Source: Patescibacteria group bacterium
GTDB lineage: Bacteria; Patescibacteriota; Minisyncoccia; Moranbacterales; UBA9337
NCBI GenBank assembly: GCA_042569905.1
Contig: JBHPHA010000001.1
Coordinates: 8,515 to 72,514 of the forward strand
Direction: 5' to 3'
Length of the DNA: 64,000 nucleotides
Shown here: in pieces, positions 5,920 through 41,344 of the stretch
Numbering within the stretch: position 1 is the first letter of the stretch
Layout: every line of letters starts with the position of its first letter
The notes under the pieces: generated by a model
Database searches by the model: none
Seen by the model: only the letters and a program-made list of their open reading frames with translations
What the model was told of the DNA's origin: nothing
Program-made: the position numbers and the translations under genes

Positions 5920-5986
5920 AAACAAAAAACACCTTAGTAAAAAGATGCTTTTGTTTATCTTGTCGGAGCACAGGGATTCGAACCCT
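5920..5986. repeat. direct repeat copy A, overlapping the 3' end of tRNA-Pro
   Basis: See 5770..5836. Includes the tRNA acceptor 3' strand and the T-arm 3' half. Confidence 0.6.
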
Positions 5987-6034
5987 GTCTACATGTACCC
6001 AAAACATGCGTGCTAGCCGTTGACACCATGCTCC
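5962..6034 (-). tRNA. tRNA-Pro (anticodon TGG)
   Basis: Hand-folded: acceptor CGGAGCA/TGCTCCG, anticodon stem CATGT/ACATG, loop TTTGGGT, T-arm CAGGG-TTCGAAT-CCCTG. 73 nt. CCA not encoded. Confidence 0.8.
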
Positions 6035-6474: not shown

Positions 6475-7389
6475 CTAAAAATTCATATTTTTTCGATCTT
6501 TTTCAATTTCCTGATCTATTGTTCTCATTGCATTTATTGCTTCAGATGGCAAAACACCACCTTGCTGAGAATTTATTAATACACCTCCAATACTCTTACC
6601 TAAGCCATAAGTTTTAATATAATTAACGACATTTGGAGATAGTTTACTTCCATACTTAGATAATGCTATATTGGCATCTAAACTACTATTAAGTGACATT
6701 GCGATCATCTTATTTACATTCTCCAATGACATTCCTACACCACCTTCAGCACCTTTTTGCGCCATCTCACTCTCCGAAGGCATTGCATATTTTGACTGCC
6801 CCATCTGCGACATAGAAGAAGACAATGCGTCTCTCAATGCATCTTCCGCTTTATTCCCGGCTTCTGCACTACTAACACCACCCGTAATTGCAGGACCCAC
6901 AATCATCAATAATGATGCCGCCACAACTATTCTTTTTTGACCTTGAAATAAATTTAAAATCTTTCCACCTAATTCTTTTACTACCTCACTCAGCACACCA
7001 GGATCAATCTTAATATTCTCAATATCCATACCTAATTTTTCAATCTCCTCATCGGGAAGACCTTCCAGTTCACTTATAATATTCATTCTTGCCTCCTCAA
7101 TATCAATGCTCTCATATATCTCCATAATCTCACCATCTCCAACACCAAGAAGTCCCTCTAATCTATCTATATCCTTCTCAATCTGAGAAATTTTTTCCAT
7201 AGACTCACCAAAAACCTTTTCATCCTCAACTTCCTTAGCACGCTCAGCTCGCATACTTTCAGCCTCGAGATCCAGAGATTCCTTCTTAATCTCCTCTACT
7301 TTTTCACTATCCACAGAATCTTCCTGCTTTTTTTCAACTGGTGGTTGTTTAAAGAATTCAAACATATTATTAGAAATGATTTTATTCAA
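6475..7389 (-). CDS. acidic coiled-coil protein with one TM segment, unknown function
   Basis: Very E/D-rich N-terminal half, one hydrophobic helix, Ser/Gly-rich C-terminus. Confidence 0.3.
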   Translation of the reverse strand: MNKIISNNMFEFFKQPPVEKKQEDSVDSEKVEEIKKESLDLEAESMRAERAKEVEDEKVFGESMEKISQIEKDIDRLEGLLGVGDGEIMEIYESIDIEEARMNIISELEGLPDEEIEKLGMDIENIKIDPGVLSEVVKELGGKILNLFQGQKRIVVAASLLMIVGPAITGGVSSAEAGNKAEDALRDALSSSMSQMGQSKYAMPSESEMAQKGAEGGVGMSLENVNKMIAMSLNSSLDANIALSKYGSKLSPNVVNYIKTYGLGKSIGGVLINSQQGGVLPSEAINAMRTIDQEIEKDRKNMNF

Positions 7390-11178: not shown

Positions 11179-11628
11179 TTAAAAACCAGCAGAAGCATTC
11201 AAAAGATTATCAATCGCCTGAATAACCACAAATCCGATTAGACCTACCACTACTCCTATAATTGACCATATCATATGCTTTTTCGCTTTTTCCATAGAAG
11301 TATCATCCCCAGCAGCCATAAAGTATTGAAGCCCTGCCAATGCAAAAGACACTACTGCTAAAACTCCGAAAATTCCCAGTATCCATTGCATGAAGTTAAA
11401 AATAATTGTTGTCACTGGATCCTCTCCACCTGGATCTGGAAGCCCTGTCTCAAATGGTATACACACGCCTGAATATTCATCAACCTCTAATCCAGTTGGG
11501 CAAACAATAGCATCAGCAAAATTAGTGCCTCCCAAAAAAATAAAAACTGCCAACATCGCAACTGGCAAATATACTGCTCTTAAAAAAAATTTATTCATAT
11601 TTTTATTGAAAAAATTAATACCACCCAA
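11179..11628 (-). CDS. T4SS pilin-like (TrbC/VirB2-like) protein
   Basis: Signal peptide plus ...WILGIFGVLAVVSFALAGLQYFMAAGDDTSMEKAKK...IQAIDNLLNASAGF. The C-terminus and 3' nucleotide sequence are near-identical to the 11705 paralog. Confidence 0.6.
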   Translation of the reverse strand: MGGINFFNKNMNKFFLRAVYLPVAMLAVFIFLGGTNFADAIVCPTGLEVDEYSGVCIPFETGLPDPGGEDPVTTIIFNFMQWILGIFGVLAVVSFALAGLQYFMAAGDDTSMEKAKKHMIWSIIGVVVGLIGFVVIQAIDNLLNASAGF

Positions 11629-36906: not shown

Positions 36907-37227
36907 TTACACCAAATATTCTTTACAGTGAGGACACTGATACTGTGGCTCCTTGTAACTTTGATTACAATATTCACAAAAAACTACTTGTCCAGTTCCT
37001 AATTCCACACCCTCAAAAGGTAACGGGAAAATAGACTTAATTGTAACCCTTTCTCCCATCTCCGCGTCAGCTCGATCTAAGGTCTCCTTATTGATGATAG
37101 GAAATGAAAATGAAACGACCTTACTATGATCATAATCGACTCTTCCCGAAAAACAGCTCGGACCTCCTTCATAAGTAGCGTAATGCACCAAATAGGCCCA
37201 GGTTCTTTTTACTTTAGGATCACTCAT
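36907..37227 (-). CDS. hypothetical protein with a C-terminal CxxC...CxxC zinc ribbon
   Basis: GGGGGA SD. Overlaps the upstream gene by 8 nt. Confidence 0.3.
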   Translation of the reverse strand: MSDPKVKRTWAYLVHYATYEGGPSCFSGRVDYDHSKVVSFSFPIINKETLDRADAEMGERVTIKSIFPLPFEGVELGTGQVVFCEYCNQSYKEPQYQCPHCKEYLV

Positions 37228-37774
37228 GACACTTCCCCCTTATTGAATCTCTGCAATGATCAAAATACCCTGCATCATTTAGTTTTTTGACAGCCATATC
37301 TAGAATAGAATCACTCAATTTCTGGCCGATAAGATAAGCTACGGTGCATTTAAACACCCTGCAAACAGCTGGTCTACGATCATAGACCCCGCAACCATCT
37401 CTACAATAGACACACTTACCCGTAGACTTATCTTTTAATAAGTAATTCTCATAGTCTACATTAAAACTCTGCTCGAATTCCCAATCAATAAGTTTAACAT
37501 TAAAACTTTCACCACAGCATTCCGAGCAATCTCCACAGTTCATGTTCTCCATCCCAACTTTCTCAAAAAATTCTTTTTCTCGAGAGTTTTCGGGATCATC
37601 TCGAAATCGAGGAGACTCCTGGATTTCTTTAATAACAAAAAAATCAGAACTAAATCTTGAAACATCAAGTGTTTTTTGCATCTTATTTCTGCTCTCAGCA
37701 AGCCAAACGAATGAAAATGGAACTCCATTTTTCGACTCAATCAAAACCAGAAATATTTTCTCATTTTTACTCAT
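37220..37774 (-). CDS. YkgJ-family (CxxCxxCC zinc/iron-chelating domain) protein with an N-terminal extension
   Basis: CGDCSECC...CVYCRDGCGVYDRRPAVCRVFKC matches the YkgJ signature. GGGGGA SD. Confidence 0.5.
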   Translation of the reverse strand: MSKNEKIFLVLIESKNGVPFSFVWLAESRNKMQKTLDVSRFSSDFFVIKEIQESPRFRDDPENSREKEFFEKVGMENMNCGDCSECCGESFNVKLIDWEFEQSFNVDYENYLLKDKSTGKCVYCRDGCGVYDRRPAVCRVFKCTVAYLIGQKLSDSILDMAVKKLNDAGYFDHCRDSIRGKCHE

Positions 37775-38207
37775 TTCAATCCCCCATGCATATAAAATTC
37801 GGTATTTTTTAAATAAAAGAACTTCTTCAATTCAACTAGACAGTATAGCTTATTCCTAACAAAAAGTCAAGATGCGTAACAAAAAAATCGCCTCAAATTT
37901 GCAGAGCAAGCTAGATTAATGTTTTGAAATAAGGAGAGAGAATAAGCTTCAAAAATGAAACTCATAAAATATTTCAGAACTCTAGTTTTTACCCTGCAAA
38001 TTCAAGACGACTTAACAGACTCTCATTATTTATTTTTCAATAATAAAGAGATTTTTGATTGCAAATTATTTTTCACAATTCAATCTATCTTTTGATTATT
38101 CTTTTTCATCTCAAATCTGATTTCCAAACTATAAACCTTCGAAAAATTCAAAAGTTTAATTGTTTGGCGGAGCGCTGATACGATGATCAACACTCTGCAC
38201 ATTTTTC

Positions 38208-38714
38208 TTATCTCACATACCATACCATGCGAGTTTTTTCCGATTGATTTAATAATGGATTCAATTGCACAAGAGCCATATCCTTAAAAAACATACACCG
38301 CGGTACAACTTCTACTTCAACTCCGCGACTATCTCTTCCGAAGAATCTCCACCCGTCGCCCTTCAGCTGTTCCCTAAGGCGATTCGATTTTATTTCAATG
38401 ACCTCCTCCCGTATAACCTTAGTCACACGATAGGAAAATTGTCTTGAGATCGACCTTTTGGCGATCAGACTCTTAAAGCACTCTACCTCCCAAAAGCCAC
38501 CATCTTTCAAAAACAACTCAGTGAAGATCCGTCTGCCCCCCTTCTTCTTTCTTTTACTTATCTTCATCCTCCGTCCCGGCGCCTGAGGAATTCGCATCCA
38601 ATACCAATGATGACTATCACTGAATCCTGTTATAGCATCCAGTGCTGCATCCTCAACCAATTCTCTTTTTATTTCAACCAATTCTTTCACTATCCCATTG
38701 GCCATTTGGGGCAT
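38208..38714 (-). CDS. basic hypothetical protein (island gene A)
   Basis: 168 aa with KISKRKKKGGRR. GGAGGG SD and the promoter module shared with the 40308 gene. GC-rich relative to the genome. Confidence 0.35.
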   Translation of the reverse strand: MPQMANGIVKELVEIKRELVEDAALDAITGFSDSHHWYWMRIPQAPGRRMKISKRKKKGGRRIFTELFLKDGGFWEVECFKSLIAKRSISRQFSYRVTKVIREEVIEIKSNRLREQLKGDGWRFFGRDSRGVEVEVVPRCMFFKDMALVQLNPLLNQSEKTRMVWYVR

Positions 38715-38819
38715 AATTTTCCCTCCGCTTCACTTAAGAAGTTTTGTGTTTTTGTTGTATAAATAAATGAACTTTTTCTCTTCATCTCAAACCTCATTCA
38801 CATAAGATTTGAGAAAAGG

Positions 38820-38852
38820 GATGGAACAGACAAGCGTATTGCCTGTTCCATC
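38820..38852 (-). terminator. hairpin/terminator module, copy 1
   Basis: gatggaacag...ctgttccatc 10-bp stem. CCCUUUUCUC follows on the minus strand. Confidence 0.5.
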
Positions 38853-38902
38853 AGCTGTGAGCGAGTTTTATTATAGGCACTCTCTCGAAAAACCTTTATT
38901 TA

Positions 38903-39808
38903 CTAACCGAGAACTTCTTCAATTGTCTGGATTTTTTCACCAGTCAAAACGATCCGACTGGGATTTCCAGATCCGAGACCGAAAGCCTGGAGCAAATCCA
39001 AATTCCGGTCGCTCGTCCCGATCAATGCCAGCGGCTGACCGTCATCGGCAGCCGTGGTCAATATAACAATGGTCGGGAATTTTTTGTACCCCCGTATCAT
39101 CACTTCTGTGACATCAATAGAGCCCTGTCCACCCAAAATCGATACAGAACCAACTCCAGAAACCAACTCTCTTAAGCCGGCAATAGCTGTATCAGTTGCC
39201 TCCTCTGGATATGCTTTCGCCCGCTCACTTACCAGTCTCGATTCAATTCCAGTAATCAACTCTCTAATAAATAGCATTTGCGTTTCAATAACCGCTCTAC
39301 TGTCACCGCTTTGCATCATAGCCAATGAAGCCTTGAAAGCGTGATTATAACGCCTACTCAATGGCGTCGGTCTATACTGCGTTGGATTATCAGCTGCATT
39401 AGCTGCCATGACCCAGTTTCCTGGGATGATGAAACCATGCCGGAGCATCAGCTTCGGACAACTCGGAGCCTTGGGATCATAAATAAACCGTTCCCCTAAA
39501 ACCTCCTGCAACTGCTCCCCTCCCAAATGGTGATCCACCCAAAGTAAAATACTCTCCTCGTTGCGCCGAGCCCAATCCAGAGTTGCCTCCGGATTACGAC
39601 CATCCACGGCCATATCTAGAATCACCGTCAGAGCCGTAAGATCTGTAAGTTTGTGCAGCAAAAACGGCTGCGTTACTGTGATGTTTCCATCAGCTCCACT
39701 CTTTCGCATGACGGCGGCGGCAATCGTGCCGTCGCAATCGCCATGCGTAATTATATCAACGGTACGGATCTCAGAAACAGCAGTAATAAATTTAGCGATA
39801 TTCAACAT
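38903..39808 (-). CDS. DHH-family phosphoesterase (NrnA/RecJ-like catalytic core)
   Basis: Motif I HGDCDG, motif III WVDHH, Gly-rich DHHA1-like C-terminus (ILGGQGS). 301 aa at approximately 55-60% GC. Confidence 0.6.
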   Translation of the reverse strand: MLNIAKFITAVSEIRTVDIITHGDCDGTIAAAVMRKSGADGNITVTQPFLLHKLTDLTALTVILDMAVDGRNPEATLDWARRNEESILLWVDHHLGGEQLQEVLGERFIYDPKAPSCPKLMLRHGFIIPGNWVMAANAADNPTQYRPTPLSRRYNHAFKASLAMMQSGDSRAVIETQMLFIRELITGIESRLVSERAKAYPEEATDTAIAGLRELVSGVGSVSILGGQGSIDVTEVMIRGYKKFPTIVILTTAADDGQPLALIGTSDRNLDLLQAFGLGSGNPSRIVLTGEKIQTIEEVLG

Positions 39809-40051
39809 GACTTTCTCCTCAGAAATTTTAGCCCAGAATAGGCTTGTGATCCACTCAGCTTGAGCATTTTAATTGACCAACATAGACTAGCTTCCTAGCC
39901 ACCCTAAGTCAGTCAATTAAAATAAAGAAGAAAATATATGCTTTTCTTGAATAAATATTTTTCTAAATGAACTTTTCTCTTCATCTCAAACTTCATTTGA
40001 TATTCGAACTACAGATACAATACGAATTTACAAATAAAGATTGAGAAAAGG

Positions 40052-40079
40052 GATGGAGCTGGAAATTGCCTGCTCCATC
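40052..40079 (-). terminator. hairpin/terminator module, copy 2
   Basis: gatggagctgg...cctgctccatc. Pairs preserved by compensatory changes relative to copy 1. Confidence 0.5.
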
Positions 40080-40307
40080 ATTCATAAAAAAACTAGGACT
40101 GATATGCCTCCCAACACTGAGAGCATATTGCTGGAAATTGTTTTGTTGGTAGTGTTTTGCATGTGCACTTGTAGCACATCCTCTCTTTATCATCACTCTT
40201 TTTTTTCATCTCTTTTTTGACATCGATACTAGACATGTGGCACTCCTATTTTAGCTTTTGAATAAATTATTGATAAAGAGTTTTATTTAGGTACTCTCTC
40301 GGAAAAC

Positions 40308-40685
40308 CTACCCGCAGAAGTCATCAGTAGCCGAACATGAAGTGTTCGGTTGTCCAGACCCACACTGGCAACTTGTCCCGAAAAATCGGGACTCTACTTC
40401 CTCGCCCTGGAGATCAGGGGGACATGAGACGCATTCGCGCTTTCGAGCCTCCTCTCGAGCCTCGCGACCCGAAGGAAACCACTGATCTTCATAAGACTGA
40501 GTGCCACAATTCTGACACCACGTCCGTGCGCGAAACTCGCGCAAGTGGCAGTCGCACACTACTCGAGGACCGCCGCACTCGACGCAAACCTCACTGAAAA
40601 TTGGCTTACCATCCAAACGAGCAAGCTCGCTATTGTGGTAAGAGTTCCATTTTCCATTAATCTTTACAAAAAATTTCTTTGCCAT
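40308..40685 (-). CDS. Cys-rich hypothetical protein (island gene C)
   Basis: 125 aa. CVECGG...CDCH...CQNCG, CVSC, CQCGSG. Same GGAGGG SD/promoter module as gene A. Confidence 0.35.
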   Translation of the reverse strand: MAKKFFVKINGKWNSYHNSELARLDGKPIFSEVCVECGGPRVVCDCHLREFRARTWCQNCGTQSYEDQWFPSGREAREEARKRECVSCPPDLQGEEVESRFFGTSCQCGSGQPNTSCSATDDFCG

Positions 40686-41344
40686 AATTTTCCCTCCGCT
40701 TCACTTAAGAAGTTTTGTGTTTTTGTTGTATAAATAAATGAACTTTTTTTATTACTCTCTCTTGAGAAAGAGAATTGTGAAGTAGATTTTTGAGATTAAG
40801 TCATCAGGCCAATATATATTTTTGCCTTGAGTTAATTTCAAAGATTCTCTCTCCTTCACAATTCTTTTTCCCAATCTCCTAGTCCTATTTGCATATTCGT
40901 AATAGATTCGTAATTTGTATACAAAAAAAGACAATTATTGGAATATTATGGTTCTATCGTGGAGACTAGTTTTAAAAACTAATCTCACATGTGGGTGTAT
41001 AGAGACATAATAAACCAATAATTGTCCTCTTGGTGTATATGTATTGTTGTCTAAATGCCTCTCCAAACATTTTTCTAACTTATTCAGTTGTAAGGTACTT
41101 TCTTAACTTGATAGTCCAGTATAGCATATTATAATCATTTTGTCAATAGCTGTATCTTGTTTTCATTTCAACTCCCTTCCTAGATTGATATTACATCGTA
41201 GCATATTTTAACTATTTTGTCAATACTCAGCTTCAACCTATTTCCACTTTTACATTCTCCATTCTCCATCTCAAATCTAATTCAGCTTGCATATTTTAAA
41301 AATATGCTATACTTTAGATATCTAATACTTTTTTATTTTAAAAA

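What the first reader, a model, noticed from the sequence alone, without database searches (positions are those of the whole stretch)
38100..41290. GC-rich ~3 kb island assembled from duplicated promoter and terminator modules, carrying a DHH phosphoesterase and two unknown proteins
Local GC jumps to ~50-60% in 38208..40685, against ~30-35% elsewhere.

Contents:
- Three minus-strand genes: a basic 168-aa protein, a 301-aa DHH phosphoesterase, and a 125-aa Cys-rich protein.
- Each has a strong GGAGG-type SD, unlike the SD-less housekeeping genes.

Repeated modules:
- The first and third genes are each preceded by the same ~58-nt upstream module (38715..38772 and 40686..40744), including the SD. 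This looks like a duplicated promoter/5'UTR.
- The DHH gene and the Cys-rich gene are each followed by a second shared module, cttttctcttcatctcaaac.tcatt plus a GC hairpin.
- A motif catctcaaatct[g/a]att occurs as a direct repeat at both island edges (38107..38123 and 41267..41283). Related copies sit in the internal modules at 38778 and 39978. This gives an att-like boundary.

No integrase or transposase was seen. The cargo cannot be assigned to any named system.

A DHH nuclease plus zinc-finger and basic partners is compatible with a nucleotide-signal-degrading or nucleic-acid-targeting accessory system. That is speculation.
Basis: partly seen in the sequence, partly recalled or inferred. 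Interest (0 to 1): 0.8.

Follow-up and report, generated by a model that had tools for sequence, protein, structure and literature searches.

The report
Foreign gene cassettes with shared control modules
A small cluster of horizontally acquired genes in a Patescibacteria (candidate phyla radiation, CPR) genome carries an uncharacterised DHH-type phosphoesterase and a cysteine-rich partner, each gene wrapped in copies of the same leader and hairpin modules; it is a modestly interesting variant of known things, not a new kind of mobile element.

Summary
The repeats, genes and Shine-Dalgarno (SD) sites are real, but the "GC island" is three GC-richer ORFs (43-52% GC, GC3 0.45-0.51; host GC3 0.31±0.04) separated by AT-rich spacers.

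- **p301:** a confident two-domain DHH/DHHA1 phosphoesterase (pLDDT 93; best matches PggH, NrnA, pAp phosphatase). It belongs to an unannotated, mainly CPR family of about 380 clusters.
- **Horizontal transfer:** close homologues sit in unrelated neighbourhoods and keep 54-61% GC in hosts of 34-47% GC.
- **p125:** not a pure orphan. Its C-terminal CxCGSGQx4Cx5FCG tail recurs in ORFs directly upstream of two distant homologues.
- **p168:** an orphan.
- **Missed gene:** a 47-aa zinc-ribbon gene (40093-40236) was overlooked.
- **"att-like" motif:** the internal copies are the 3' arm of a conserved hairpin that leads into a leader motif, AAGTTCWTTTA. That motif occurs four times in 64 kb, each time ahead of one of four consecutive genes, including the neighbouring host-like gene.
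- **Wider pattern:** related boxA-like leader motifs are about 20-fold enriched upstream of homologues elsewhere, whose arrays also carry locus-specific duplicated modules (one holds hammerhead ribozymes).
- **Mobility:** no integrase, attC signature or known defence system was found.

Best reading: acquired expression cassettes shuffled by recombination at shared regulatory modules. Function is inferred as small-nucleotide hydrolysis.

The parts
41258..41282 (-). Edge copy of the purine-rich motif (minus strand AATTAGATTTGAGATGGAGAATGGA). It lacks the hairpin partner and the GTTC part.
41100..41225 (-). Two tandem sigma-70-like promoters (TTGACA-17-TACGAT and TTGACA-17-TATACT) inside a 49-nt direct repeat, reading toward the cluster.
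   Evidence: (D3)
40918..41060 (-). Very stable nested hairpin followed by T7, lying downstream of the promoters. It is either the terminator of a short (~190 nt) transcript or an attenuator.
   Evidence: -47.7 kcal/mol, z = -9.2; I1; no Rfam match
40762..40874 (-). 25-nt inverted repeat (88% complementary) forming a long hairpin immediately 5' of the p125 leader module.
   Evidence: I4
40683..40748 (-). Leader module A, copy 2. It runs AAGTTCATTTA ... GGAGGG ... ATG and is 66 nt identical to copy 1, ending at the start codon.
   Evidence: (D1)
40308..40685 (-). p125, a Cys-rich protein (52% GC). Its C-terminal tail CQCGSGQPNTSCSATDDFCG is SEC-C-like and is shared with ORFs upstream of distant DHH-like genes (L050, L051).
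40093..40236 (-). 47-aa zinc-ribbon ORF (CYKC...CSQC) with an AGGAG SD and host-like GC. It sits inside an insertion in the second copy of the 3' module.
   Evidence: read
39973..40079 (-).
   Evidence: z = -5.3
39809..39974 (-). Leader of p301: AAGTTCATTTAGAA (10 of 12 to a boxA-type consensus), a long hairpin at 39866-39923, a small hairpin, and the GAGGAG SD.
   Evidence: (z = -7.6)
38903..39808 (-). p301, a DHH/DHHA1 two-domain phosphoesterase of an unannotated family. Invariant residues include HGDxDG, D65, DHH92-94, ANAxD140 and GSG..R285.
38774..38902 (-). 3' module copy 1: post-stop box, a terminator-like hairpin (38820-38852, followed by CCTTTTCTC), and hairpin 2 ending in the motif (38774-38798).
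   Evidence: z = -6.7
38712..38777 (-). Leader module A, copy 1 (AAGTTCATTTA ... GGAGGG ... ATG).
38208..38714 (-). p168, a basic orphan protein (43% GC) with no relative in any search and no confident fold.
38098..38122 (-). Edge copy of the motif, preceded by AGGTTT. It looks like a degenerate, hairpin-less remnant of the 3' module after p168.
37814..37870 (-). Promoter (TTGACT-17-TATACT) and leader TTGAATTGAAGAAGTTCTTTTA of the next gene. This is a fifth, related copy of the motif plus leader element.
36907..37774 (-). Host-GC genes downstream that share the leader motif: a 184-aa CxxCxxCC (PF03692) protein and an overlapping 106-aa zinc-ribbon protein.

Best explanation
The locus is a small accessory-gene cluster in a Patescibacteria chromosome. 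It is made of horizontally acquired genes arranged as self-contained expression cassettes.

**Cassette layout (shown).** Each cassette runs in this order:
1. a long hairpin;
2. a purine-rich stretch plus the leader motif AAGTTCWTTTA;
3. a strong Shine-Dalgarno site;
4. the ORF;
5. a post-stop box and a terminator-like hairpin.

**How the modules were copied (inferred).** The leader and hairpin modules were copied from cassette to cassette by homologous or illegitimate recombination at those same short modules. Site-specific integration at att sites is not needed to explain them.

**What the modules do (inferred).** They give foreign genes an SD-led, insulated mode of expression in a host whose own genes are mostly SD-less or leaderless. 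The leader motif may be a boxA-type (Nus-factor) antitermination signal.

**The cargo.**
- *Shown:* p301 is a metal-dependent DHH/DHHA1 phosphoesterase, on the evidence of its fold and invariant catalytic motifs.
- *Inferred:* it hydrolyses short nucleotides such as pGpG, pApA, pAp or a nucleotide second messenger.
- *Inferred:* p125, the Cys-rich protein with a SEC-C-like tail, is its conserved partner.
- p168 and the 47-aa zinc-ribbon protein are lineage-specific additions of unknown role.
For: **Foreign origin**
- GC3 of the three ORFs is 0.45-0.51, against a host mean of 0.306 ± 0.043.
- Homologues at 50-61% identity keep 54-61% GC in hosts of 34-47% GC.
- Those homologues lie in unrelated contexts.
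- One sits in a 2.6-kb insert between pilB and pilC. These two genes are 4 nt apart in another CPR locus.

**Enzyme**
- The AF2 model has pLDDT 93.
- Foldseek top hits are pAp phosphatase 8a8k, PggH 7d62 (TM 0.60), NrnA, DhhP and RecJ.
- DHH motifs I-IV are invariant across 24 homologues.
- The family has 382 clusters at 50% identity, and none carries a Pfam assignment.

**Modules**
- Module A is 66 nt, 100% identical, and ends at the ATG.
- The 3' modules fold far better than shuffled sequence (z = -6.7 and -5.3), with compensatory changes between the copies.
- AAGTTCWTTTA occurs 4 times in 64 kb, always in the leaders of four consecutive co-oriented genes. Expectation is 0.43.

**The same design recurs elsewhere**
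- Locus-specific duplicated 5' and 3' modules surround homologues in L003, L009, L016 and L001.
- L016's repeated 3' module contains type III hammerhead ribozymes.
- boxA-like 12-mers are 20-fold (at least 11 of 12; P about 2e-11) to 94-fold (12 of 12) enriched in the 250 nt upstream of 27 non-redundant homologues.
- In L001 all three cassette leaders carry TGTTCTTTGA.

**Partner**
- p125's C-terminal 20 aa matches the C-terminal 20 aa of the ORF just upstream of the L051 homologue (60% identity, E = 6e-6). The L050 upstream ORF carries the same tail.
- Zinc-ribbons are fused to or inserted in other family members.
Against: - No empty-site allele or sister genome could be examined, so acquisition at this exact spot is inferred from composition only.
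- The window's leader motifs match the boxA consensus poorly: 10 of 12 for p301 and 7-8 of 12 for the others. The organism's own rRNA boxA is not in the window.
- No convincing sigma-70 promoter was found inside the modules, so the transcription units are not defined.
- The two edge motif copies lack the GTTC part. The leader reading does not explain them, and they remain compatible with a recombination scar.
- A generic test for CxxC..CxxC neighbours of homologues showed no enrichment.
- The substrate of p301 is unknown. The DHHA1 GGGH motif is replaced by GSGxxxR.
- Neither PADLOC nor PHROGs recognises any of the proteins.
Confidence: 0.55

Rival explanations
1. First reader's reading. A discrete integrative element is bounded by att-like direct repeats (catctcaaatct[g/a]att at 38107-38123 and 41267-41283) and is mobilised in trans by a recombinase encoded elsewhere. 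The internal copies mark tandem insertions.
For: - Four co-oriented copies occur only here.
- The edge copies match each other at 16 of 17 positions, better than they match the internal pair.
- The cargo is compositionally foreign.
- Homologues are clearly mobile between CPR genomes.
- One homologue lies next to a serine-recombinase-like ORF (L021) and one next to a primase-polymerase-like ORF (L014). Both were identified by eye only.
Against: - No integrase or transposase lies within 7-10 kb, and no tRNA is adjacent.
- The internal copies are arms of hairpins that lead into a leader motif. A fifth related copy sits in the leader of the next, host-GC gene, outside the proposed borders.
- The motif is absent from all 58 related loci.
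- Chance 15-17-nt repeats of similar quality are common in this AT-rich region (D12-D20).
- About 500 nt inside the left border is host-like promoter DNA.
Confidence: 0.15
2. An integron-like cassette array without its integrase (CALIN-like). Each ORF would be followed by a species-specific hairpin recombination site.
For: - The ORFs are co-oriented, small and mostly orphans, each followed by a structured imperfect palindrome.
- The 3' repeats are homogeneous within a locus but differ between loci (L003, L009, L016). This pattern is seen for attC sites in chromosomal integrons.
Against: - The R''/R' signature (RYYYAAC ... GTTRRRY) is not met. The arms read CTCAAAT and GTTTGAG (read).
- There is no IntI.
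- Integrons do not explain shared 5' leaders that end exactly at the ATG.
- In L009 the modules are mosaic (3'A-5'B-gene-3'A ... 3'C-5'B-gene-3'C). That fits homologous shuffling better than one recombination site.
- No attC covariance model could be run.
Confidence: 0.05
3. Functional rival. The cluster is a defence or counter-defence module in which p301 degrades a nucleotide immune signal, in the manner of NrN or ring nucleases, with p125 and p168 as sensor or effector.
For: - p301's best structural match by TM-score is PggH. PggH and GdpP are the enzymes reported as NrN's closest matches (PMC10600005).
- A distant family member (P0076) is the N-terminal domain of a Cas10 carrying GGDD, inside a type III operon with RAMPs, Cmr3 and Csx19.
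- One homologue lies near HicAB and AbiEii genes (L058), and L001 also has an AbiEii gene.
Against: - There are no PADLOC hits for any of the proteins.
- No CRISPR, CBASS, CorA or CARF genes were seen among the neighbouring genes checked.
- No relative was found in 2.9 million viral contigs.
- In a Saccharibacteria-like group the gene sits in stable synteny with smpB, dsbA and pilB, at host GC, like an ordinary chromosomal gene.
- The Cas10 fusion is a single case among 382 clusters.
Confidence: 0.2
4. Assembly artefact or contaminating DNA spliced into the MAG contig.
For: The GC-rich ORFs are orphans. Repeats can mis-join contigs.
Against: - The GC-rich ORFs are embedded one by one in AT-rich spacers that carry host-type promoters (TTGACA-17-TATACT).
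- The spacers also share a leader motif with the next host-GC gene.
- The same architecture recurs around homologues in independent assemblies.
Confidence: 0.03

Closest known systems
Stand-alone DHH/DHHA1 phosphodiesterases (NrnA, PggH, GdpP catalytic domain, archaeal pAp phosphatase)
   Same: Same two-domain fold (Foldseek E = 1e-9 to 1e-10; TM 0.60 to PggH). Similar size of about 300 aa. DHH motifs I-IV are intact.
   Different: Only 12-16% identity. The Pfam DHH score is 16 bits, below the 28-bit cut-off, and no DHHA1 hit was reported. GGGH is replaced by GSGxxxR. The family is restricted mainly to CPR and some archaea, and the substrate is unknown.
NrN, the SAM-AMP phosphodiesterase of CorA-type type III-B CRISPR systems (PMC10600005)
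   Same: A DHH-family enzyme whose closest structural matches are also PggH and GdpP. A distant relative of p301 is fused to Cas10.
   Different: There is no CRISPR or CorA here. The adjacent CNNM/CBS gene is a different transporter family and is absent from other loci. Sequence relationship to NrN was not tested because no NrN sequence was at hand.
Promoter/stem-loop regulatory cassettes (PeSLs) that flank and shuffle orphan genes in T4-type phage hyperplastic regions (Arbiol et al. 2010; recalled from own knowledge, not checked here)
   Same: Short repeated regulatory modules (control signal plus stem-loop) bracket unrelated small orphan ORFs. Module combinations are mosaic (window, L009).
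   Different: This is a chromosomal CPR context. No phage genes are present and no strong promoter was found in the module. Recombination at the modules is inferred, not observed.
Integron cassette arrays / CALINs
   Same: Co-oriented small ORFs, each followed by a structured repeat that is lineage-specific. No integrase nearby, as in CALINs.
   Different: There is no RYYYAAC/GTTRRRY signature. The shared 5' leaders that end at the ATG are not an integron feature.
boxA (Nus-factor) antitermination leaders of rRNA operons, suhB and CRISPR arrays (PMC5725501, PMC7665894)
   Same: A 12-nt motif about 15-20 nt downstream of promoters, often preceded by a hairpin as in the rrn boxB-boxA arrangement. 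Homologue leaders match GCTCTTTAACAA / GTTCTTTGAAAA at 11-12 of 12 positions. The GTTCTTTGAAAA (Firmicutes-type) form is recalled from own knowledge.
   Different: The window's copies match only 7-10 of 12. Protein-coding cassettes are an unusual target. No comparison with this organism's rRNA leader was possible.

Membership tests
DHH phosphoesterase superfamily | Motifs I-IV (DxD, D, DHH, D) that bind the catalytic metals | tested here: met
   HGDCDG (D24, D26), D65, D92-H93-H94 and D140 are invariant or nearly invariant in 24 homologues.
DHH phosphoesterase superfamily | Two-domain DHH + DHHA1-type fold | tested here: met
   AF2 model with pLDDT 93 and pTM 0.84. There are 70 PDB matches at E <= 1e-3; the listed top 50 are all DHH-fold proteins (NrnA, PggH, RecJ, GdpP, family II PPase and similar).
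DHH phosphoesterase superfamily | Pfam PF01368 at gathering score; DHHA1 GGGH substrate motif | tested here: not met
   PF01368 scores 16.2 bits against a cut-off of 28.1, and no DHHA1 hit was reported. The conserved C-terminal motif is LGSGNPSR, not GGGH.
NrN / CRISPR-associated signal phosphodiesterases | Genomic association with cas10 and an effector (CorA) | tested here: not met
   No such genes were seen among the window ORFs listed or scanned. Only the distant relative P0076 is Cas10-fused.
NrN / CRISPR-associated signal phosphodiesterases | Hydrolysis of SAM-AMP or cyclic oligoadenylate | not testable with these tools
   A biochemical assay is needed.
Site-specific integrative island | Direct repeats (attL/attR) at both borders | tested here: inconclusive
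   A 16-of-17 repeat exists at 38107 and 41267. Related copies lie inside the island and outside it at 37826, as parts of leaders.
Site-specific integrative island | Integrase or recombinase, or insertion at a tRNA | tested here: not met
   None within 7-10 kb. The only tRNA is at 5962.
Site-specific integrative island | Empty site in relatives | not testable with these tools
Integron / CALIN | attC with R'' RYYYAAC and R' GTTRRRY inverted cores | tested here: not met
   The hairpin arms read ..CTCAAAT.. and ..GTTTGAG... This was checked by eye only; no attC model was run.
Integron / CALIN | IntI tyrosine recombinase | tested here: not met
boxA antitermination element | Match to the boxA consensus in a 5' leader | tested here: inconclusive
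   The p301 leader scores 10 of 12, and the module A and CxxC184 leaders score 7-8 of 12. Homologue leaders score 11-12 of 12 and are 20-94-fold enriched.
boxA antitermination element | Same motif in the organism's own rRNA leader; NusB/NusE binding | not testable with these tools
   There is no rRNA leader in the window or in the fetched loci.
SEC-C motif proteins (PF02810) | C-terminal CxCGSGxxxxxC zinc-binding tail | tested here: inconclusive
   p125 ends in CQCGSGQPNTSC... The L050 counterpart scores 18.5 bits against a cut-off of 20.4. p125's 25-residue tail alone gave no Pfam hit.
Hammerhead ribozyme type III (related locus L016 only) | CUGAUGA...GAAA core with three helices; Rfam gathering score | tested here: inconclusive
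   RF00008 scores 38.8 and 29.3 bits against a cut-off of 48.5. The core and helices are intact. None was found in the window.

The most novel reading that the evidence does not exclude
CPR bacteria may carry a previously undescribed style of portable expression cassette. In it, a foreign ORF travels with, or acquires, a standard set of RNA-level parts:
- a hairpin or self-cleaving ribozyme that insulates it from its neighbours;
- a boxA-type leader that makes RNA polymerase termination-resistant;
- a strong SD.

These parts would let foreign genes be expressed in hosts that otherwise use leaderless or SD-less genes. They would also let cassettes be shuffled by recombination at the shared parts, which would make this a chromosomal analogue of phage PeSLs or integron cassettes.

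The recurrent cargo would be a two-gene unit, the DHH/DHHA1 phosphodiesterase plus a SEC-C-tailed Cys-rich protein, that turns over a nucleotide signal. A link to type III CRISPR signalling is suggested by the Cas10 fusion.
Probability: 0.15. Interest if true: 0.75.

Novelty: new variant of a known kind. Interest (0 to 1): 0.45.

Why it matters
**An unannotated enzyme family.** If the reading holds, the locus documents a subfamily of DHH/DHHA1 phosphoesterases of about 380 clusters that is mainly found in CPR bacteria. It has an altered substrate motif and a conserved Cys-rich partner. One relative is fused to Cas10. These points make it a concrete candidate for biochemical tests on nucleotide second messengers.

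**How small genomes domesticate foreign genes.** The locus also shows how very small, SD-poor Patescibacteria genomes handle acquired genes. Each gene is wrapped in repeated leader and hairpin modules. In one relative those modules include hammerhead ribozymes, and in many relatives they include boxA-like leaders. That would extend Nus-type antitermination, known for rRNA, suhB and CRISPR arrays, to acquired protein-coding cassettes.

**Limits.** None of this is established. The safe conclusion is an accessory gene islet of ordinary kind with an unusual regulatory layout.

Tried and rejected
- **Library scans.** PADLOC and PHROGs gave nothing usable for p168, p301, p125 and a 67-aa ORF at 39993-40196. 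NCBIfam gave only two far-sub-threshold RecJ matches for p301. The correct-frame 47-aa ORF was scanned against Pfam only.
- **PDB by sequence.** No useful match with p301 alone. The family profile gave only PggH at E = 0.02.
- **Rfam.** No known RNA family in the island at E <= 1 other than chance miRNA-hairpin hits. Nothing but tRNA, rRNA and tmRNA-like hits in the related loci, at gathering score and at E <= 0.05. The hammerhead appeared only in L016.
- **Orphan searches.** The 5.8-billion-cluster search for p168 and p125 returned only self hits. Local phmmer and blastp of p168 against all ORFs of the related loci found nothing.
- **AF2 of p168.** Without an alignment the model has pLDDT 34 and is unusable.
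- **Viral links.** No relative of p301 was found in IMG/VR, and the module A sequence is absent there. The BFVD fold search found only generic viral DHH enzymes at 10-18% identity.
- **Motif in relatives.** The catctcaaa motif occurs in none of the 55 loci held at the time.
- **Leader hairpin homology.** I suspected that the window's hairpin 39866-39923 was homologous to the conserved leader hairpin of L018-L021 because of a shared GGCTAGGAA. A covariance model built from those leaders does not hit the window, so I dropped the idea.
- **Zinc-ribbon neighbours.** A generic enrichment test for CxxC..CxxC neighbours was not significant (0.067 against 0.048 per kb). Only the specific SEC-C-like tail and the fusions are kept as evidence.
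- **Hammerhead in the window.** The CUGAUGG in the window's 3' module is not a hammerhead core. There is no GAAA after the helix and the second copy lacks it (read).
- **afdb50.** The fold library was unavailable.

Full report
**Source and setting.** The window is part of a 77-kb contig of a "Patescibacteria group bacterium" MAG (NCBI names ACFL08_00285/290/295). GC is about 35% throughout. Most host ORFs have no Shine-Dalgarno site, and many have a TATAAT box only 5-10 nt before the ATG, so they look leaderless.

**Checking the observation: genes and composition.** The three minus-strand ORFs exist as described. The composition claim is only partly right.
- ORF GC is 0.43 (p168), 0.48 (p301) and 0.52 (p125).
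- 300-nt windows peak at 0.51-0.56.
- The spacers are 0.29-0.35, like the host.
- GC3 is 0.45-0.51 against a host mean of 0.306 ± 0.043. p301 is the most extreme of the 29 ORFs of at least 200 aa.

So there are three compositionally foreign ORFs set one by one into AT-rich spacers, not one continuous GC block.

**Checking the observation: repeats.** The repeats are real.
- A 66-nt stretch (38712-38777 = 40683-40748) is 100% identical. It contains GGAGGG and ends exactly at the start codons of p168 and p125.
- After both p301 and p125 come three elements in the same order:
  1. a post-stop box, AGGTTTT(T/C)CGAGAGAGT(G/A)CC;
  2. a hairpin followed by CCCTTTTCTC, with an A-U to G-C compensatory change between the copies;
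- The two modules fold with z = -6.7 and -5.3.
- The p125 copy carries two insertions. One contains a missed 47-aa zinc-ribbon ORF with its own SD (40093-40236).
- The 14-nt core of the motif occurs four times in 64 kb, only here and in one orientation. Expectation is 0.64.

**The proteins: p301.** Sequence libraries barely see p301 (Pfam DHH E = 0.013, below threshold). It has 24 close homologues, and a profile search finds 382 clusters at 50% identity. None of the 24 homologues carries a Pfam assignment, and the few that have a source name are called hypothetical. Other evidence identifies it clearly.
- The alignment shows invariant HGDxDG, D65, DHH92-94, ANAxD140 and a C-terminal GSGxxxR.
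- The AF2 model is confident (pLDDT 93).
- It matches only DHH/DHHA1 enzymes: pAp phosphatase 8a8k, PggH 7d62 (best TM, 0.60), NrnA, DhhP, GdpP and RecJ, at 12-16% identity.

The "DHH phosphoesterase" call is therefore correct at superfamily level. The DHHA1 GGGH motif is not conserved, so substrate specificity cannot be transferred.

**The proteins: p168 and p125.** p168 has no relative anywhere and no confident fold. p125 also returned only itself, but it is not a pure orphan.
- Its last 20 residues are CQCGSGQPNTSCSATDDFCG-stop.
- The last 20 residues of the ORF just upstream of the distant homologue in L051 are CQCGSGQSWVECKANTGFCG-stop. The two align without gaps at 60% identity (E = 6e-6 pairwise; E = 5e-4 against about 1370 ORFs).
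- The ORF overlapping the start of the L050 homologue ends CTCGSGQPWQDCRDERGFCG-stop. It gives a sub-threshold SEC-C motif hit.
- Other members have Cys-rich ORFs upstream (L046, L054).
- Still others have a zinc-ribbon fused at the C-terminus (P0004, P0006) or inserted in the second domain (P0095, P0149, P0173).

I therefore treat p125 and p301 as a conserved pair. A generic test for CxxC..CxxC neighbours was not significant, so this rests on the specific tail motif and the fusions.

**Evidence of horizontal transfer.** Several observations point the same way.
- Homologues at 50-61% identity have 54-61% GC in hosts of 34-47% GC.
- They lie in unrelated neighbourhoods: next to HSP20, tRNA and ValRS genes; next to an aminotransferase and radical-SAM-like genes; and near HicAB and AbiEii genes.
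- In L003-L006 and L013 the gene and a 143-aa orphan occupy a 2.6-kb insert between pilB and pilC. In L030 the pilB ORF and the next ORF (412 aa, pilC-like by clustering) are 4 nt apart.
- By contrast, a 35%-identity branch (Saccharibacteria-like) has host GC and stable synteny with smpB, dsbA and pilB.

The family therefore looks resident in some CPR lineages and transferred into others. The window belongs to the transferred set.

**The modules are a recurring design.** Around close homologues in other assemblies I found locus-specific duplicated modules with the same logic.
- **L003:** a 73-nt hairpin-plus-tail repeated after the orphan and after the DHH gene (93% identical, with compensatory changes).
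- **L009:** a mosaic array (DHH, 3'A, 5'B, a 54-aa zinc-ribbon gene, 3'A..., 3'C, 5'B, gene, 3'C).
- **L001:** an SD-bearing 5' module ending at the ATG before successive genes.
- **L016:** a 43-nt 5' module ending at the ATG, and a 110-nt 3' module (96% identical) that contains a type III hammerhead ribozyme with an intact core (38.8 and 29.3 bits, below Rfam's 48.5 cut-off).

None of the module sequences is shared between loci.

**The "att-like" motif reconsidered.** On the coding strand the internal copies read ...AGGTTTGAGATGAAGAGAAAAAGTTCATTTA.... This is the 3' arm of hairpin 2 running into AAGTTCATTTA, which begins the leader of the next gene.

AAGTTCWTTTA occurs four times in the whole window (0.43 expected; 0 of 100 shuffles reach 4). 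All four are on the minus strand, each ahead of one of four consecutive genes:

| Gene | Leader motif position |
|---|---|
| p125 | 40735-40745 |
| p301 | 39964-39974 |
| p168 | 38764-38774 |
| CxxCxxCC-184 (host-GC gene) | 37814-37824 |

In the last case the motif lies about 13 nt downstream of the start site implied by a canonical TTGACT-17-TATACT promoter, and it is preceded by TTGAATTGAAGA.

Leaders of homologues elsewhere carry closely related strings:

| Locus | Leader string |
|---|---|
| L020 | AATGAAGAAGTTCTTTAACAAG |
| L018 | TTGAGAAAGTCCTTTAACAAA |
| L007 | GAAGGAGAGAAAATGTTCTTTGATAAA |
| L001 | TGTTCTTTGA before all three cassette genes |
| L009 | AGTTCTTTAG in its repeated 5' module |

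These match the boxA antitermination consensus. E. coli GCUCUUUAACAA is found in PMC2724277. The Firmicutes-type GTTCTTTGAAAA is recalled from my own knowledge.

A 12-mer consensus scored at 11 of 12 or better gives 11 hits in 6.6 kb upstream of 27 non-redundant homologues, against 29 in 354 kb of background. That is 20-fold enrichment (Poisson P about 2e-11). At 12 of 12 the enrichment is 94-fold. The consensus was partly tuned after looking at the data, and some loci are related, so the P-value is only indicative.

boxA elements outside rRNA have precedent (suhB, PMC5725501; CRISPR arrays, PMC7665894). The window's own copies are weaker (10, 8, 7 and 7 of 12). I therefore call them a boxA-related leader motif and mark the antitermination function as inference. 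The two edge copies lack the GTTC part and stay unexplained. They may be decayed module remnants (38098-38122 is preceded by AGGTTT, like a collapsed 3' module) or a recombination scar.

**What it most likely is.**
- *Shown:*
  - the ORFs are compositionally foreign;
  - p301 is a DHH/DHHA1 enzyme with intact catalytic motifs;
  - the p125 tail motif is linked to the gene family;
  - the leader and hairpin modules are duplicated;
  - the four genes share one leader motif;
  - the design recurs around homologues;
  - no recombinase lies nearby.
- *Inferred:*
  - the modules spread by recombination at their own short homologies (the mosaic order in L009 and the identity that stops exactly at the ATG both point that way);
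  - the modules insulate and license expression of foreign genes through terminator hairpins or a ribozyme, a Nus-type leader and a strong SD;
  - p301 hydrolyses short nucleotides.

**Function of p301.** Two hints favour a signalling substrate. NrN, the SAM-AMP phosphodiesterase of CorA-type type III CRISPR systems, has the same best structural matches (PMC10600005). A distant family member forms the N-terminal domain of a Cas10 (with GGDD) in an operon with RAMPs, Cmr3 and Csx19.

Against a defence role are four points:
- there are no PADLOC hits;
- no immune genes were seen around the island;
- no viral relatives were found;
- the Saccharibacteria-like branch shows housekeeping-like synteny.

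**Comparison with known systems.** Details are in the membership table. In short:
- It is a member of the DHH superfamily by fold and motifs, but of no annotated family.
- It fails the tests for an integron (no attC cores, no IntI).
- The tests for an integrase-borne island are inconclusive at best.
- The closest architectural analogue I know is the promoter/stem-loop cassettes of T4-type phages.
- The closest mechanistic analogue for the leader is boxA antitermination.

**Verdict.** It is best filed as a new variant of known kinds: a horizontally acquired accessory islet plus a divergent DHH/DHHA1 subfamily. Its regulatory packaging is unusual and recurs in other genomes, and that deserves follow-up. 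Interest is 0.45.

Noticed in passing
L056:1532-4147 (protein P0076): An 871-aa Cas10 (palm2 domain, GGDD motif) whose N-terminal ~290 aa is a DHH-like domain of this family, apparently with motifs II/III placed before motif I, where an HD domain would normally sit. It lies in a type III operon with RAMPs, Cmr3 and Csx19.
   Followed up: partly
L016:4302-4355 and 5971-6019: Two type III hammerhead ribozyme candidates (38.8 and 29.3 bits, below Rfam's cut-off; the CUGAUGA...GAAA core and helices are intact). They sit inside a 110-nt module repeated after two gene cassettes, one of them directly after the DHH-like gene.
   Followed up: partly
window 40918-41148 (minus strand): A strong promoter (TTGACA-17-TATACT with a TG extension) is followed about 80 nt later by a very stable nested hairpin (z = -9.2) and a T7 run. 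This is a candidate ~190-nt small RNA or attenuator with no Rfam match. The promoter itself is tandemly duplicated (49-nt repeat at 41100-41148 and 41177-41225).
   Followed up: partly
L007:9-761, L009:4523-5326, L015:4325-5113 (also L001:1004-1750): A TrmB-family HTH regulator is the divergent upstream neighbour of the DHH-like gene in three independent loci, separated by 650-900 nt of non-coding DNA. No such gene was seen near the island in the window.
   Followed up: no
L017-L021 (e.g. L018:331-481): A conserved ~140-nt 5' leader of the DHH-like gene: promoter, GTCCTTTAACAAA, a long hairpin (GATTTAATTACTTAC...GTAAGTAATTAAATC), a small hairpin, then the start codon. L020 shows compensatory changes in the apical stem. 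A model built from these leaders weakly hits leaders in L040 and L001 (E about 3).
   Followed up: partly
window 38903-39808: NCBI's protein for this gene is 268 aa (P0001). It starts after the HGDCDG motif I that is invariant in the family. The 301-aa ORF with the GAGGAG SD is the likely true product.
   Followed up: yes
whole window: Most host genes lack an SD, and many have a TATAAT-like box 5-10 nt upstream of the ATG (for example 2188-2775, 6475-7389, 11179-11628). This suggests widespread leaderless translation in this organism.
   Followed up: partly
L014:166-2091 and L021:2352-4157: A primase-polymerase-like 641-aa ORF (..SRSGNGGHVWIFF..) and a serine-recombinase-like 601-aa ORF lie next to DHH-like genes, hinting at plasmid or phage-type carriers. 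Both were identified by eye only.
   Followed up: no
window 40887-40925 vs L048:1193-1231 / L049:486-524: A 39-nt stretch of the spacer upstream of p125 matches a non-coding stretch in two distant loci at 85% identity (E = 5e-5 within the small database). It may be chance.
   Followed up: no
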